NCBI RefSeq assembly: GCF_009914755.1 | Contig: NC_060947.1 | Source: the human T2T-CHM13v2.0 reference genome, Homo sapiens | DNA: 64,000 bases | Strand: one strand, 5' to 3' | Shown: piece after piece, positions 15,271 through 22,608 of the stretch | Layout: every line of letters starts with the position of its first letter | Position numbering within the stretch: the first letter of the stretch is position 1 | Translations under genes and position numbers: made by a program | Notes under the pieces: generated by a model | What the model was told of the DNA's origin: nothing | The model's input: the letters and a program-made list of their open reading frames with translations, nothing else | Database searches by the model: none

Positions 15271-17520
15271 TTATTTTTTATTTTTTTTAATTTTATTATT
15301 ATTATACTTTAAGTTTTAGGGTACATGTGCACAATGTGCAGGTTAGATACATATGTATACATGTGCCTTGCTGGTGTGCTGCACCCATTAACTCGTCATT
15401 TAGCATTAGGTATATCTCCTAAAGCTATCCCGCCCCGCTCCCCCCACCCTACAACCGTCCCCAGAGTGTGATGTTCCATTTCCTGTGTCCATGTGTTCTC
15501 ATTGTTCAATTCCCACCTGTGAATGAGAATATGCGGTGTTTGGTTTTTTGTTCTTGCGATAGTTTACTGAGAATGATGATTTCCAATTTCATCCATGTCC
15601 CTACAAAGGACATGAGCTCATCATTTTTTTTATGGCTGCATAGTATTCCATGGTGTATATGTGCCACATTTTCTTAATCCAGTCTATCATTGTTGGACAT
15701 TTGGGTTGGTTCCAAGTCTTTGCTATTGTGAATAGTGCCACAATAAACATACGTGTGCATGTGTCTTTATAGCAGCATGATTTATAGTCCTTTGGGTATA
15801 TACCCACTAATGGGATGGCTGGGTCAAATGGCATTTCTAGTTCTAGGTCCCTGAGGAATCGCCACACTGACTTCCACAATGGTTGAACTAGTTTACAGTC
15901 CCACCAACAGTGTAAAAGTGTTCCTGTTTCTCCACATCCTCTCCAGCACCTGTTGTTTCCTGACTTTTTAATGATTGCCATTCTAACTGGTGTGAGATGG
16001 TATCTCATTGTGGTTTTGATTTGCATTTCTCTGATGGCCAGTGATGGTGAGCATTTTTTCATGTGTTTTTTGGCTGCATAAATGTCTTCTTTTGAGACGT
16101 GTCTGTTCATATCCTTCGCCCACTTTTTGATGGGGTTGTTTGTTTTTTGCTTGTAAATGTGTTTGAGTTCATTGTAGATTCCGGATATTAGCCCTTTGTC
16201 ACATGAGTAGGTTGCGAAAATTTTCTCCCATGTTGTAGGTTGCCTGTTCACTCTGATGGTAGTTTCTTTTGCTGTGCAGAAGCTCTTTAGTTTAATTAGA
16301 TCCCATTTGTCAATTTTGGCTTTTGTTGCCATTGCTTTTGGTGTTTTAGACATGAAGTCCTTGCCCATGCCTATGTCCTGAATGGTACTGCCTAGGTTTT
16401 CTTCTAGGGTTTTTATGGTTTTAGGTCTAACGTTTAAGTCTTTAATCCATCTTGAATTCATTTTTGTATAAGGTGTAAGGAGGGGATCCAGTTTTAGCTT
16501 TCTCCATATGGCTAGCCAGTTTTCCCAGCACCATTTATTAAATAGGGAATCCTTTCCCCATTGCTTGTTTTTCTCAGGTTTGTCAAAGATCAGATAGTTG
16601 TAGATATGTGGCGTTATTTCTGAGGGCTGTGTTCTGTTCCATTGATCTATATCTCTGTTTTGGTACCAGTACCATGCTGTTTTGGTTACTGTAGCCTTGT
16701 AGTATAGTTTGAAGTCAGGTAGCGTGATGCCTCCAGCTTTGTTCTTTTGGCTTAGGATTGACTTGGCGATGCGGGCTCTATTTTGGTTCCATATGAACTT
16801 TAAAGTAGTTTTTTCCAATTCTGTGACGAAAGTCATTGGTAGCTTGATGGGGATGGCATTGAATCTATAAATTACCTTGGGCAGTATGGCCATTTTCACG
16901 ATATTGATTCTTCCTACCCATGAGCATGGAATGTTCTTCCATTTCTTTGTATCCTCTTTTATTTCATTGAGCAGTGGTTTGTAGTTCTCCTTGAAGAGGT
17001 CCTTCACGTCCCTTGTAAGTTGGATTCCTAGGTATTTTATTCTCTTTGAAGCAATTGTGAATGGGAGTTCACTCATGATTTGGCTCTCTGTTTGTCTGTT
17101 ATTGGTGTATAAGAATGCTTGTGATTTTTGTACCTTGATTTTGTATCCTGAGACTTTGCTGAAGTTGCTTATCAGCTTAAGGAGATTTTGGGCTGAGACA
17201 GTGGGGTTTTCTAGATATACAATCATGTCATCTGCAAACAGGGACAATTTGACTTCCTCTTTTCCTAATTGAATACCCTTTATTTCCTTCTCCTGCCTAA
17301 TTGCCCTGGCCAGAACTTCCAACACTATGTTGAATAGGAGTGGTGAGAGAGGGCATCCCTGTCTTGTGCCAGTTTTCATAGGGAATGCTTCCAGTTTTTG
17401 CCCATTCAGTATGATATTGGCTGTGGGTTTGTCATAGATAGCTCTTATTATTTTGAGATACATCCCATCAATACCTAATTTATTGAGGCCTTTGACGAAA
17501 TTCAACAACGCTTCATGCTA
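15271..17520 (-). mobile_element. 5'-truncated L1PA3-like LINE-1 (left arm) with small 5' inversion
   Basis: 3'UTR diagnostic ctaaatgacgagttaatgggtgcagcacacc; poly(A); 14-bp TSD tatatttttatttt at 15257-15270 and 17519-17532. Confidence 0.92.
15601..17487 (-). pseudogene. ORF2: LINE-1 ORF2p remnant (partial RT with FADD, C-terminal cysteine-rich domain), frameshifted near the C-terminus
   Basis: 635-aa ORF closely matching L1 ORF2p ([19 protein letters not shown]...HCWWDC); the first codons of the called ORF come from the inverted segment. Confidence 0.92.
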
Positions 17521-18080
17521 TATTTTTATTTTACTGAGAATTTTTGTCATGAATAGGTGGTAGATTTTGCTAAATACTTCTCTTATCTACTGAGATGATC
17601 ACATGGTTTTTTGTCCTTTATTCTATTATTATGGTGCATGAAATTAGTTGATTTCCAACATGTTATATATACTTTCTATTCCTAAGCTATATTCCATTTG
17701 GCTATCTTGTATAATCCTTTTTACAAGTTGCTGAATTTGGTTTGATTACATTTTGTTAAGTATTCTTGCATCTATGTTCATGAGGAATATTGGTTTGTAA
17801 TTTTTTGTGTATATGGTATTTTGGCCGCTTCTCTGTAGTCTGGAAGAGTTTGTGAAGGTTTAATGCTAATTTTTTCTTTAATGTAGAATTTTTGGCTCTA
17901 GTATATCTCCTTTTCCTACTCCCTCTTTTCTTTACTATTAGTGTCACATATATTGTAACTCTATATGATATAAATCCTACAAAATAGTGTTATACTTTTT
18001 CTTATGTTCTTTAAAGAAGTTTAAAGAAGAAATAAGAAAAAATATTTATAGTCTTTGATGCTTATCCATGTATTTAGCAT

Positions 18081-18395
18081 TTCCTTCCTTCTTTCCTTTC
18101 TTTTCTTTCCTTTTTCTTTTTCTTTTTCTTTTGCTCTGTCACTCAGGCTGGAGCACACTGGTATGAGTATAGTTCGCTGTAACCTTGACCTCCTGGGTTC
18201 CAGTGATCCTCCTGCCTTAGCCTCCCAAGTAGCTGGGACTACAGGCATGTATGACCACATCCAACTTATTTTTTATTTTTTTGTGGGTCTTGCTGTGTTC
18301 ACCAGGCTGATGTTGAACTGCTGGACTCAGGTAATTCTTCTGCCTTGGCCTTCAAAAGCACTTGGGATTTCAGGCACGAGCCACTGTACCTGGCC
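18081..18395 (-). mobile_element. AluJ-like SINE
   Basis: Diverged Alu dimer in antisense with a TTTC-rich tail. Confidence 0.85.
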
Positions 18396-19872: not shown

Positions 19873-22369
19873 AGAAGATGAATCTCTGAATAGACCAATA
19901 ACAGGATCTGAACTTATGGCAATAATTAATAGCTTACCAACCAAAAAGAGTCCAGGACCAGATGGATTCACAGCCGAATTCTACCAGAGGTACAAAGAGG
20001 AACTGGTACCATTCCTTCTGAAACTATTCCAATCAATAGAAAAAGAGGGAATCCTCCCTAACTCATTTTATGAGGCCAGCATCATCCTGATACCAAAGCC
20101 GGGCAGAGACACAACCAAAAAAGAGAATTTTAGACCAATATCCTTGATGAACATTGATGCAAAAATCCTCAATAAAATACTGGCAAACCGAATCCAGCAG
20201 CACATCAAAAAGCTTATCCACAATGATCAAGTGGGCTTCATCCCTGGGATGCAAGGCTGGTTCAACATACACAAATCAATAAATGTAATCCAGCATATAA
20301 ACAGAACCAAAGACAAAAACCACATGATTATCTCAATAGATGCAGAAAAGGCCTTTGACAAAATTCAACAACCCTTCACGCTAAAAACTCTCAATAAATT
20401 AGGTATTGATGGGACGTATCTCAAAATAATAAGAGCTATCTATGACAAACCCACAGCCAATATCATACTGAATGGGCAAAAACTGGAAGCATTCCCTATG
20501 AAAACTGGCACAAGACAGGGATGCCCTCTCTCACCACTCCTATTCAACATAGTGTTGGAAGTTCTGGCCAGGGCAATTAGGCAGGAGAAGGAAATAAAGG
20601 GTATTCAATTAGGAAAAGAGGAAGTCAAATTGTCCCTGTTTGCAGATGACATGATTGTATATCTAGAAAACCCCACTGTCTCAGCCCAAAATCTCCTTAA
20701 GCTGATAAGCAACTTCAGCAAAGTCTCAGGATACAAAATCAAGGTACAAAAATCACAAGCATTCTTATACACCAATAACAGACAAACAGAGAGCCAAATC
20801 ATGAGTGAACTCCCATTCACAATTGCTTCAAAGAGAATAAAATACCTAGGAATCCAACTTACAAGGGATGTGAAGGACCTCTTCAAGGAGAACTACAAAC
20901 CACTGCTCAATGAAGTAAAAGAGGATACAAAGAAATGGAAGAACATTCCATGCCCATGGGTAGGAAGAATCAATATCGTGAAAATGGCCATACTGCCCAA
21001 GGTAATTTATAGATTCAATGCCATCCCCATCAAGCTACCAATGACTTTCTTCACAGAATTGGAAAAAACTACTTTAAAGTTCATATGGAACCAAAATAGA
21101 GCCCGCATCGCCAAGTCAATCCTAAGCCAAAAGAACAAAGCTGGAGGCATCACGCTACCTGACTTCAAACTATACTACAAGGCTACAGTAACCAAAACAG
21201 CATGGTACTGGTACCAAAACAGAGATATAGATCAATGGAACAGAACACAGCCCTCAGAAATAACGCCACATATCTACAACTATCTGATCTTTGGCAAACC
21301 TGAGAAAAACAAGCAATGGGGAAAGGATTCCCTATTTAATAAATGGTGCTGGGAAAACTGGCTAGCCATATGGAGAAAGCTAAAACTGGATCCCTTCCTT
21401 ACACCTTATACAAAAATGAATTCAAGATGGATTAAAGACTTAAACGTTTGTCCTAAAACCATAAAAACCCTAGAAGAAAACCTAGGCAGTACCATTCAGG
21501 ACATAGGCATGGGCAAGGACTTCATGTCTAAAACACCAAAAGCAATGGCAACAAAAGCCAAAATTGACAAATGGGATCTAATTAAACTAAAGAGCTTCTG
21601 CACAGCAAAAGAAACTACCATCAGAGTGAACAGGCAACCTACAACATGGGAGAAAATTTTCGCAACCTACTCATGTGACAAAGGGCTAATATCCAGAATG
21701 TACAATGAACTCAAACAAATTTACAAGCAAAAAACAAACAACCCCATCAAAAAGTGGGCGAAGGATATGAACAGACACGTCTCAAAAGAAGACATTTATG
21801 CAGCCAAAAAACACATGAAAAAATGCTCACCATCACTGGCCATCAGAGAAATGCAAATCAAAACCACAATGAGATACCATCTCACACCAGTTAGAATGGC
21901 AATCATTAAAAAGTCAGGAAACAACAGGTGCTGGAGAGGATGTGGAGAAATAGGAACACTTTTACACTGTTGGTGGGACTGTAAACTAGTTCAACCATTG
22001 TGGAAGTCAGTGTGGCGATTCCTCAGGGATCTAGAACTAGAAATGCCATTTGACCCAGCCATCCCATTAGTGGGTATATACCCAAAGGACTATAAATCAT
22101 GCTGCTATAAAGACACATGCACACGTATGTTTATTGCGGCAGTATTCACAATAGCAAAGACTTGGAACCAACCCAAATGTCCAACAATGAAAGACTGGAT
22201 TAAGAAAATGTGGCACATATATACCATGGAATACTATGTAGCCATAAAAAATGATGAGCTAATGTCCTTTGTAGGGACATGGATGAAATTGGAAATCATC
22301 ATTCTCAGTAAACTATCGCAAGAACAAAAAACCAAACACCGCATGTTCTCACTCATAGGTGGGAATTGA
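19873..22369 (+). pseudogene. ORF2: LINE-1 ORF2p remnant lacking endonuclease; uninterrupted RT plus C-terminal domain
   Basis: 840-aa ORF ending ...[10 protein letters not shown] like ORF2p; FADD motif retained; no L1 promoter, ORF1 or EN domain. Confidence 0.92.
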
Positions 22370-22608
22370 ACAATGAGAACACATGGACACAGGAAGGGGA
22401 ACATCACACTCTGGGGACTGTTGTGGGGTCGGGGGAGGGGGGAGGGTTAGCATTAGGAGATATACCTAATGCTAAATGACGAGTTAATGGGTGCAGCACA
22501 CCAGCATGGCACATGTAGACATATGTAACTAACCTGCACATTGTGCACATGTACCCTAAAACTTAAAGTATAATAATAATAAAAAAAATAAAAAATAAAT
22601 AAAAAAAA
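19873..22608 (+). mobile_element. 5'-truncated L1PA3-like LINE-1 (right arm)
   Basis: ORF2 from ESLNRPITG to the stop codon, L1PA3-type 3'UTR and A-rich tail; no clean TSD seen. Confidence 0.92.

What the first reader, a model, noticed from the sequence alone, without database searches (positions are those of the whole stretch)
15271..22608. Inverted L1PA3 pair evolving in concert as a ~2.2 kb-arm palindrome
Seen: two divergently oriented L1 copies with different 5' truncation points; the left has its own 14-bp TSD and 5' inversion, so they look like separate insertions. Over the aligned region (left ~15280-17487 vs right ~20390-22580) both carry the same ORF2 changes: AFPMK, KIKVQ, NQNRA, RTQPS, LAIWR, TKMNS, LGSTI, YSCDK, YKQKT, RHVSK, LEMPF, PLVGI, plus silent changes such as gctaaaactgg. 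Established: the L1PA ORF2p consensus (recalled) has L, N, K, E, C, I, I, S, K, F, I, L at these sites. Inference: about 12 shared private mutations, several at conserved residues and so unlikely in an active common donor, imply repeated arm-to-arm gene conversion or recombination. The arms still differ at over a dozen other residues, and the distal 3'UTRs differ more, which fits patchy conversion tracts.
Basis: partly seen in the sequence, partly recalled or inferred. Interest (0 to 1): 0.82.

Follow-up and report, generated by a model that had tools for sequence, protein, structure and literature searches.

The report
Gene conversion between two inverted L1 copies
Two separately inserted LINE-1 fragments lying head to head in an intron of FRMPD4 on the human X chromosome have had about 1.7 kb of one copied onto the other, which is an ordinary, already known kind of exchange between neighbouring repeats.

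Summary
Two 5'-truncated young L1 copies lie in inverted orientation: left 15271-17518 on the minus strand, right 19873-22618 on the plus strand. They are 98.07% alike over 2,230 columns. All 12 shared ORF2 residue changes are real when compared with solved human ORF2p.

The arms have two histories. In the inner 1,681 nt they are 99.17% identical and sisters in the tree (SH-aLRT 100). There they carry 17 shared rare variants against 14 unshared differences. In the outer ~440 nt they are 95.0% identical. At least 39 dispersed copies match each arm better than its partner does, and shared to unshared is 1:21. The change point lies at right 22070-22137 (Fisher p=1e-4).

No dispersed copy examined carries more than 3 of the shared variants. 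The left copy has its own exact 14-bp target-site duplication and a 5' inversion.

Best reading: at least one long arm-to-arm gene conversion, with divergence since. Repeated or ongoing concerted evolution is not shown. This is a new example of a known process, and interest is low to moderate.

The parts
15257..15270 (.). Target-site duplication of the left L1, first copy
   Evidence: Exact 14-mer found only here and at 17519-17532 in the window, with 0 expected by chance. It abuts the A-rich tail.
15271..15297 (-). A-rich tail of the left L1, read as a T-rich run on the + strand
   Evidence: Read directly from the sequence. The limits are approximate.
15298..15739 (-). Left arm, outer part (end of ORF2 and 3'UTR), not homogenised
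   Evidence: 95.0% identical to the right arm. The 39 best dispersed hits score 701-728 bits against 692 for the partner. Shared to unshared variants are 1:21. It holds a 2-nt insertion at 15624-15625 that ends the reading frame early, and 7 private changes within 57 nt of the G-rich tract 15423-15479.
15740..15806 (-). Interval holding the outer end of the conversion tract, left arm
   Evidence: The change point lies between right 22070 and 22137.
15807..17487 (-). Left arm, inner part (ORF2), homogenised with the right arm
   Evidence: 99.17% identical, with 14 mismatches and no gap in 1,681 nt. Sister to the right arm, SH-aLRT 100. 17 shared rare variants.
17488..17518 (+). Short 5' inverted piece of the left L1 (the twin-priming form, a name recalled). 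It corresponds to right 20350-20383, with 6 nt missing at the junction.
   Evidence: It differs from the right copy at 3 of 34 positions, against 1 of 479 in the adjoining arm (Fisher p=0.001). It lacks the right copy's private C at 20379.
17519..17532 (.). Target-site duplication of the left L1, second copy
17533..19872 (.). Spacer without young L1 sequence. It holds two stretches at 18082-18396 and 18520-18841 that I take to be Alu (no repeat library was run), and old L1-like fragments in inverted orientation at about 19150-19260 and 19788-19872.
   Evidence: No match to upstream L1 parts. The two stretches only match sequence in the non-L1 flanks of the fetched loci. Inverted repeat I4.
19873..20389 (+). 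Right L1, 5' part with no counterpart in the left arm
   Evidence: All comparison copies align from 19873 on. It holds 7 private variants in 517 nt. The best dispersed hit is 98% identical.
20390..22070 (+). Right arm, inner part (ORF2), homogenised with the left arm
   Evidence: The partner is the best genome-wide hit among those scored.
22071..22136 (+). Interval holding the outer end of the conversion tract, right arm
22137..22574 (+). Right arm, outer part (end of ORF2 and 3'UTR), not homogenised
   Evidence: The 39 best dispersed hits score 720-743 bits against 692 for the partner.
22575..22618 (+). A-rich tail of the right L1, with a possible degenerate target-site duplication at its end
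   Evidence: Read directly from the sequence. The match of about 19858-19872 to about 22605-22618 is imperfect and A-rich, so it is inconclusive.

Best explanation
Two 5'-truncated L1 copies of the same young subfamily inserted separately, 2.9 kb apart and in opposite orientation, into an intron of FRMPD4. Later, at least one intrachromosomal, non-allelic gene conversion copied about 1.6-1.75 kb of ORF2 sequence from one arm onto the other. The tract runs from at or near the inner end of homology (right 20390 / left 17487) to a point between right 22070 and 22137.

The donor's private mutations became the 17 shared rare variants. Since then each arm has gained about 7 changes of its own in that tract. 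The last ~0.45 kb (end of ORF2, 3'UTR, tail) and the left copy's small inverted piece were not converted, and they show the full divergence of two independent insertions.

Shown: separate insertion of the left copy, a mosaic history along the arms, and a variant set private to the pair. Inferred: the mechanism (repair of a break or heteroduplex using the other arm as template), the direction, the number of events, and the timing. I place the event at roughly the last third of the pair's age, from 7 own against 17 shared changes. No function is implied.
For: 1. Separate insertion. An exact 14-bp duplication flanks the left copy and occurs nowhere else in the window. The left copy has an A-rich tail and a 5' inverted piece. 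Homology between the arms stops at the L1 ends.

2. Inner segment.
- 99.17% identity.
- Each arm is the other's best hit in the whole genome among those scored: 1922 bits against at most 1864, and 1353 against at most 1335. Forty of 4,589 and 40 of 4,285 candidates were scored.
- The arms are sisters with SH-aLRT 100. Their end branches are 0.0045-0.0047 against a median of 0.011.

3. Outer segment.
- 95.0% identity and 692 bits.
- All 39 other hits listed score higher for either arm, and the partner is not among them.
- The arms are not sisters in the best tree.

4. Shared rare to unshared sites are 17:14 in the inner part against 1:21 in the outer part. The best split lies between 22070 and 22137. 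Fisher p=1.1e-4, permutation p for any split 0.001, and p=0.006 without the G-rich cluster. A ratio of this kind is not affected by local mutation rate.

5. The set is private to the pair.
- No more than 3 of 17 listed sites occur in any of 55 comparison copies.
- Five copies picked for sharing short segments each carry 1 of 12, and a sixth carries 2 of 18.
- Segments holding 2-3 of the variants are exact only in the two arms.
- Among 1,596 pairs of sequences, the arms share 8 rare variants where all but one other pair share at most 3.

6. The load fits two old insertions. The right copy has 7 private variants in the 517 nt outside the homology. That density, about 1.35%, is close to shared plus own in the inner tract, 24 in 1,681.

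7. The left arm's outer part carries more private changes than the right (12 against 8). That is the opposite of what a younger daughter copy would show (p=3e-4, or 0.08 without the cluster).

8. Known background. Non-allelic conversion between transposable-element copies is elevated within 10 kb and on sex chromosomes (passage in PMC6598467). An inverted L1PA3 pair mediates a human inversion, HsInv0341 (table row in PMC3961182).
Against: - The AU test does not reject a tree that keeps the arms together in the outer 424 columns (p=0.23).
- Much of the outer divergence is a cluster of 9 differences in 57 nt of the G-rich 3'UTR tract. Without it, the rate-weighted excess of outer differences is only p=0.037.
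- There is no GC-biased signal against the comparison copies' own spectrum: W>S is 6 of 8, p=0.20.
- A tract of at least 1.57 kb is long. Mammalian tracts are said to be usually a few hundred bp and rarely over 1 kb (passage in PMC3961182).
- Both comparison sets were chosen by likeness to the left arm. I countered this by scoring each half with the set chosen on the other half.
- Each genome search scored only 40 of 60 to 4,589 candidates, so a rare relative could have been missed.
- No ape orthologues or other human haplotypes could be examined.
- The right copy's own target-site duplication is not clear.
Confidence: 0.75

Rival explanations
1. Single shared origin by retrotransposition. The left copy is a daughter of the right copy: either its intronic transcript was mobilised in trans, or a reverse transcriptase switched template from an active L1 RNA onto nascent RNA of the right copy. 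It would have inherited the right copy's private mutations when it inserted.
For: The left copy's L1 extent, including the inverted piece, lies within the right copy's extent. It has all the marks of retrotransposition. The counts of shared against own variants in the inner tract (17, 7, 7) fit one split. A template switch could in principle explain the change point.
Against: - The outer 0.45 kb shows no shared history (1:21), and at least 39 dispersed copies match it better than the partner does.
- The left arm's outer part carries more private changes than the right (12 against 8, where about 23% was expected; p=3e-4, or 0.08 without the cluster). A younger copy should carry fewer.
- The inverted piece lacks the right copy's private 20379C and differs at 3 of 34 positions.
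- Landing 2.9 kb from the source has a very low prior (inference).
Confidence: 0.1
2. Common private source. Both copies came from one rare source element, a sub-subfamily that already carried the variant set, and landed side by side by chance.
For: Both arms share the same subfamily states at intermediate-frequency sites along their whole length, including the 3'UTR. Some 'private' variants recur in other copies, for example 21489G in 6 of 55 and 20743G in 6 further exact 66-mers.
Against: - No other copy carries more than 3 of the set.
- The loci found for different variants do not coincide.
- The only two progeny of a source falling within 5 kb of each other is very improbable (inference).
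- A common source predicts shared rare variants in the outer part too, and only 1 in 22 is seen there.
Confidence: 0.04
3. DNA-level inverted duplication of part of the right copy, by fold-back or template switching at replication.
For: Inverted arms with a short spacer, and high identity next to the spacer.
Against: - The homology ends exactly at the left copy's A-rich tail and at a 5' truncation with an inverted piece, and the whole is flanked by an exact 14-bp duplication.
- No flank is shared.
- The outer part has a different history.
Confidence: 0.03
4. Assembly artefact that made the arms look alike.
For: None from the calls.
Against: The arms are kept apart by 39 substitutions and 3 indels. 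Arms of 2.2 kb are far shorter than the long reads used for a telomere-to-telomere assembly (recalled, not tested).
Confidence: 0.01

Closest known systems
Non-allelic (interlocus) gene conversion between neighbouring transposable-element copies. It is best documented for Alu (Aleshin & Zhi 2010, seen only as cited in PMC6598467; that paper itself is not held).
   Same: Two independent insertions of one family lie less than 10 kb apart on a sex chromosome. Part of one has been overwritten by the other, giving reduced divergence, a mosaic history and tree incongruence.
   Different: The elements here are L1 fragments, not Alu. The tract is at least 1.57 kb, several times the length of a whole Alu. 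The copies are inverted. The evidence comes from one genome only, without orthologues.
Inversions mediated by inverted repeats, for example HsInv0341, which is flanked by an inverted L1PA3 pair (PMC3961182, table passage).
   Same: An inverted pair of young L1 copies of high identity on one chromosome is a substrate for homologous exchange.
   Different: The arms there are 6.2 kb and the inverted segment 20.8 kb. Here the arms are 2.2 kb and the spacer 2.9 kb. Whether this spacer flips could not be tested. What is seen here is sequence transfer, not inversion.
Large sex-chromosome palindromes kept alike by arm-to-arm gene conversion (passages of PMC11168930; Rozen 2003 seen only as cited there).
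   Same: Inverted arms around a spacer on the X chromosome, with exchange between the arms.
   Different: That screen asks for at least 98% identity, length of at least 8 kb and less than 80% repeat content. This pair has 2.2-kb arms made wholly of L1, was born from two insertions rather than a duplication, is homogenised over only three quarters of its length, and has diverged since.

Membership tests
L1 insertion by target-primed reverse transcription (each arm) | ORF2 reverse-transcriptase coding sequence | tested here: met
   The right-arm translation aligns to solved human L1 ORF2p over residues 441-1274, E=0. The left arm is 99% identical to it in ORF2.
L1 insertion by target-primed reverse transcription (each arm) | A-rich tail at the 3' end and 5' truncation | tested here: met
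   The tails are read. The copies start at L1 positions matching right 20390 and 19873.
L1 insertion by target-primed reverse transcription (left arm) | Target-site duplication flanking the insertion | tested here: met
   An exact 14-mer at 15257-15270 and 17519-17532, the only two matches in the window, with 0 in 100 shuffles.
L1 insertion by target-primed reverse transcription (right arm) | Target-site duplication flanking the insertion | tested here: inconclusive
   There is only an imperfect A-rich match of about 14-15 nt at about 19858-19872 and 22605-22618.
   No repeat-consensus library was available. The arms are 96-97% identical to the best dispersed copies over 2.7 kb, and both share one set of intermediate-frequency states.
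Non-allelic gene conversion between paralogous repeats | The copies arose independently or earlier than their present likeness implies | tested here: met
   The left copy has its own insertion marks. The outer parts are 95.0% identical, no closer than dispersed copies are.
Non-allelic gene conversion between paralogous repeats | Mosaic history: a tract of excess likeness with a break point, and tree incongruence along the sequence | tested here: met
   Change point at 22070-22137, Fisher p=1.1e-4, permutation p=0.001. The inner tree makes the arms sisters (SH-aLRT 100) and the outer tree does not. However, the AU test does not reject a clade in the outer part, p=0.23.
Non-allelic gene conversion between paralogous repeats | Shared derived variants absent from the rest of the family | tested here: met
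   17 shared rare variants, with no other copy carrying more than 3. Each search scored only 40 candidates.
Non-allelic gene conversion between paralogous repeats | Paralogues cluster by species rather than by position in orthologous comparisons | not testable with these tools
   Only the window's own genome is held. The tool states that it has no relatives here.
Non-allelic gene conversion between paralogous repeats | GC-biased transmission (a supporting feature, not a defining one) | tested here: inconclusive
   Among shared variants W>S is 6 of 8, against 53.5% in the comparison copies' singletons, p=0.20.
Sex-chromosome palindrome in concerted evolution | Long arms (at least 8 kb), at least 98% identity, and not made mostly of repeats (criteria of PMC11168930) | tested here: not met
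   The arms are about 2.2 kb and wholly L1. Overall identity is 98.07%.
Sex-chromosome palindrome in concerted evolution | Likeness kept up along the whole arm by recurrent conversion | tested here: not met
   The outer ~440 nt are 95.0% identical. One event suffices for the inner tract: largest gap p=0.18.
Inverted-repeat-mediated inversion | The spacer is found in both orientations among haplotypes or species | not testable with these tools
   No other haplotype or species is held.

The most novel reading that the evidence does not exclude
The pair is a small palindrome born from two transposon insertions that still exchanges sequence. On this reading there has been more than one conversion event: the innermost 454 nt have no difference and 479 nt have a single one. 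The 2.9-kb spacer would flip by crossing-over between the arms, so that conversion and inversion alleles segregate in living humans. Pairs like this, and perhaps the chr11 L1 neighbours found in passing, would be a widespread class that palindrome screens miss because they exclude short arms and repeats.
Probability: 0.15. Interest if true: 0.4.

Novelty: new member of a known kind. Interest (0 to 1): 0.25.

Why it matters
This is a clean, single-locus illustration that neighbouring L1 fragments can overwrite one another over more than 1.5 kb.

It matters in practice for dating L1 insertions from their divergence, for assigning subfamilies, and for tracing source elements. An L1 dated from its inner part would look much younger here, or would seem to come from a 'private subfamily'.

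It also marks a 7.4-kb inverted structure in an FRMPD4 intron that could mediate a small inversion.

It does not reveal a new mechanism. No function for the host or for the element is indicated.

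Tried and rejected
- **Different subfamily 3' ends.** I first guessed that the two 3'UTRs belong to different subfamilies. This is rejected. The arms share all 7 intermediate-frequency 3'UTR states, and the outer differences are private changes.
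- **GC-biased conversion.** By eye the variants looked W>S-rich. Measured against the comparison copies' own singleton spectrum the excess is not significant: p=0.20, 0.13 and 0.57 for shared, left-only and right-only variants.
- **Left-only states as relics of another lineage.** Left-only states seemed to recur in many comparison copies. Most of this came from choosing both sets with the left arm as query. Carriers of 21695G and 21718C do not overlap, so I dropped it as evidence.
- **Older subfamily as donor of the shared states.** Five older copies (92-97% identical) that share short segments each carry only 1 of 12 sites. Not supported.
- **Patchy, repeated tracts.** The spread of the 14 inner differences fits one event (p=0.18). 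I left this as unshown rather than rejected.
- **Open ORF2 as a sign of selection or youth.** Rejected, because 16 of 47 comparison copies are open over the same codons.
- **Mapping 19823-19871 to L1 ORF1.** There is no match to the upstream parts of full-length copies. It belongs to an old inverted L1-like fragment.
- **Print searches.** Five searches and one that included the gene name (with 0 occurrences of FRMPD4 in the 10 papers listed of 349) turned up no paper on this pair. None of these searches could look up a locus by coordinates.

Full report
**Setting.** The window is human chrX:11408001-11472000 of T2T-CHM13, as given by the hub, and G000:C23. The finding lies in an intron of the long FRMPD4 transcripts. 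No annotated exon is near it.

**What is there.** The repeat finder gives two adjoining inverted matches. Arms 15626-17487 / 20390-22251 are 99% complementary over 1,862 nt. Arms 15259-15629 / 22246-22616 are 94% over 371 nt. BLAST of one arm against the reverse complement of the other gives 98.07% over 2,230 columns, with 39 mismatches and 3 gap openings. Every difference is listed.

The right copy is L1 sense on the + strand and the left copy is sense on the - strand. Their A-rich tails point outward and their truncated 5' ends face each other.

Translation shows ORF2 open over 638 aa on the left and 847 aa on the right. The right translation aligns to solved human L1 ORF2p over residues 441-1274. 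The arms differ at 15 of 620 aligned codons.

The open frames are not remarkable. Sixteen of 47 comparison copies are open over the same 620 codons.

**Separate insertions.**
- The left copy is flanked by an exact 14-mer, TATATTTTTATTTT, at 15257-15270 and 17519-17532. These are its only two occurrences in 64 kb, and none was found in 100 shuffles.
- Between the sense part, which ends at 17487, and the second 14-mer lie about 31 nt (17488-17518). They are L1 sequence in the opposite orientation and match right 20350-20383. Six L1 bases are missing at the junction. This is the form known as twin priming, a name I recall and did not test.
- Arm homology stops at these L1 ends, and no flank is shared.
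- The right copy starts at 19873, where all 30-odd comparison copies begin to align. It abuts an old L1-like fragment.
- The right copy's own target-site duplication is only an imperfect A-rich match, and I leave it open.

**Comparison copies.** The window's own genome can be searched. I took the best dispersed hits to left 16400-17487 (28 copies; 40 of 4,589 candidates scored). I also took the best hits to left 15626-16400 (28 copies, one a duplicate of the first set; 40 of 4,285 scored). That gives 55 distinct copies.

Both sets were picked by likeness to the left arm, which inflates the number of carriers of the arms' own states. For the final count I therefore scored each half of the arm with the set that had been picked on the other half.

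**Two histories along the arms.**

Inner 1,681 nt (right 20390-22070):
- 14 mismatches and no gap, 99.17% identity.
- Each arm is the other's best genome-wide hit among those scored: 1922 bits against at most 1864, and 1353 against at most 1335.
- In a maximum-likelihood tree of 49 rows the arms are sisters with SH-aLRT 100. Their end branches are 0.0045-0.0047 against a median of 0.011.
- There are 17 shared rare variants (0-2 carriers in the cross-chosen set), 7 left-only differences and 7 right-only differences.

Outer part (right 22137-22575):
- 95.0% identity and 692 bits.
- With either arm as query, all 39 other hits listed score higher (720-743 and 701-728 bits), and the partner is not among them.
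- The arms are not sisters in the best tree.
- Shared to unshared is 1:21.

The likelihood change point falls between 22070 and 22137. Fisher p=1.1e-4, permutation p over all split points 0.001, and p=0.006 if the G-rich cluster is left out. This ratio does not depend on local mutation rate.

The rate-weighted excess of outer differences is p=7e-4, or 0.037 without the cluster.

The left copy's inverted piece cannot pair in the palindromic register. It differs from the right copy at 3 of 34 positions, against 1 of 479 in the adjoining arm (p=0.001). It lacks the right copy's private C at 20379.

**Is the shared set a sub-subfamily?**
- Of the 17 sites listed, no comparison copy carries more than 3.
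- Among 1,596 pairs of the 57 sequences, the arms share 8 variants that at most one other sequence has. Every other pair shares at most 3, except one pair of chr11 neighbours.
- Short queries that hold 2-3 of the variants are exact only in the two arms: 72 nt (40 of 519 candidates scored), 70 nt (40 of 1,247) and 71 nt (40 of 1,356).
- The five copies that came within one mismatch were fetched. Each carries 1 of 12 sites.
- Single variants do recur. Exact 66-mers with 20498A, 20743G or 21248C occur in 1, 6 and 2-3 other copies. The loci do not coincide between lists, and the chr1 copy with 20498A carries 2 of 18.
- The combination is therefore private to the pair, within the limit that each search scores 40 candidates.

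**Mechanism.** The simplest account has four steps:
1. Two independent insertions of one subfamily. The arms share all intermediate-frequency states, including those in the 3'UTR.
2. Independent decay of both copies.
3. One conversion tract of at least 1.57 kb (20498 to 22070) and at most about 1.75 kb, which carried the donor's private changes into the other arm.
4. About 7 new changes per arm since then.

The load agrees with this. The right copy has 7 private variants in the 517 nt outside the homology, about the same density as shared plus own in the tract (24 in 1,681).

From 7 own against 17 shared changes, the event falls in roughly the last third of the pair's age. Turning this into years needs a substitution rate that I only recall, so I give none.

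More than one event is not needed. The largest difference-free stretch is 454 nt, and that fits a uniform spread (p=0.18).

**Rivals.**
- *Daughter copy of the right element, with or without a template switch.* This explains the nested extent and the 17:7:7 counts. It does not explain the left arm's outer part carrying more private changes than the right (12 against 8; p=3e-4, or 0.08 without the cluster). Nor does it explain the unlike inverted piece or the absence of shared rare variants in the outer part.
- *DNA-level duplication.* The insertion marks contradict it.
- *Common private source.* The genome searches and the change point contradict it.

**Weak points.**
- The AU test does not reject a clade in the short outer segment (p=0.23).
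- Much of the outer divergence is one cluster in the G-rich tract.
- There is no GC-bias signal.
- The tract is long by the usual mammalian figures quoted in PMC3961182 (passage).
- No orthologues could be examined.

**Compared with what is known.**
- Non-allelic conversion between transposable-element copies is reported to be elevated within 10 kb and on sex chromosomes. I saw this in a passage of PMC6598467 that cites Aleshin & Zhi 2010, which is not held.
- A review mentions the same process (passages of PMC8232201).
- For PMC8230782, on Alu, I saw only the search listing and the start of the abstract.
- An inverted L1PA3 pair mediates the human inversion HsInv0341 (table passage of PMC3961182).
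- The ape sex-chromosome study screened for palindromes of at least 8 kb, at least 98% identity and under 80% repeat content (passage of PMC11168930). A 2.2-kb pair made wholly of L1 could not appear in that catalogue.
- My searches listed no paper on this pair. None of them could search by locus, and supplements were not consulted.

**Verdict.** This is a new example of a known process, with low to moderate interest.

Noticed in passing
L015/L026 with L064/L068 (G000:C11:107,368,500-107,386,323): Two full-length L1 copies lie about 11 kb apart in the same orientation on chr11. They are 98.3% identical over 6,033 nt, and the homology is confined to the L1. They share 13 rare variants in the 2.2 kb compared, the only other outlier among 1,596 pairs. 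This is a second candidate for exchange between neighbouring L1 copies, or a local duplication of the element.
   Followed up: partly
window 15423-15479 (left) and 22396-22452 (right): A cluster of substitutions sits in the G-rich tract of the L1 3'UTR. There are 7 private changes in the left arm, including an adjacent GG>AT, and 2 in the right arm, all within 57 nt. The comparison copies are also most variable here: mean minor-letter fraction 0.037 against 0.014 in ORF2. The cause is unknown.
   Followed up: partly
window 20390-22070 (shared variant sites): The shared rare variants are rich in transversions: 12 of 15 against 45% among 557 singletons of the comparison copies (p=0.007). C<->G changes are 5 of 15 against 12% (p=0.027). 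Of the 12 variants absent from the first set of 28 comparison copies, 11 change the residue (mapped by hand). This is unexplained and statistically weak.
   Followed up: partly
window about 19150-19260 and 19788-19872: Old L1-like fragments lie in inverted orientation, 90% identical over 49 nt and weaker beyond. The right young L1 starts directly after the second fragment. They do not match the upstream parts of full-length young L1 copies.
   Followed up: partly
window 18082-18396 and 18520-18841: Two stretches in the spacer match sequence in the non-L1 flanks of the fetched L1 loci. I take them to be Alu elements by size, but no repeat library was run, so that label is untested. NCBI masks 18512-18842.
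   Followed up: no
G000:C23:10801723-10802497 (L035): After the partner, the best dispersed match to left 15626-16400 is another L1 on the same chromosome about 620 kb away, at 1335 bits against 1353 for the partner. It carries only 2 of the listed shared sites, 21489G and 21645C.
   Followed up: partly
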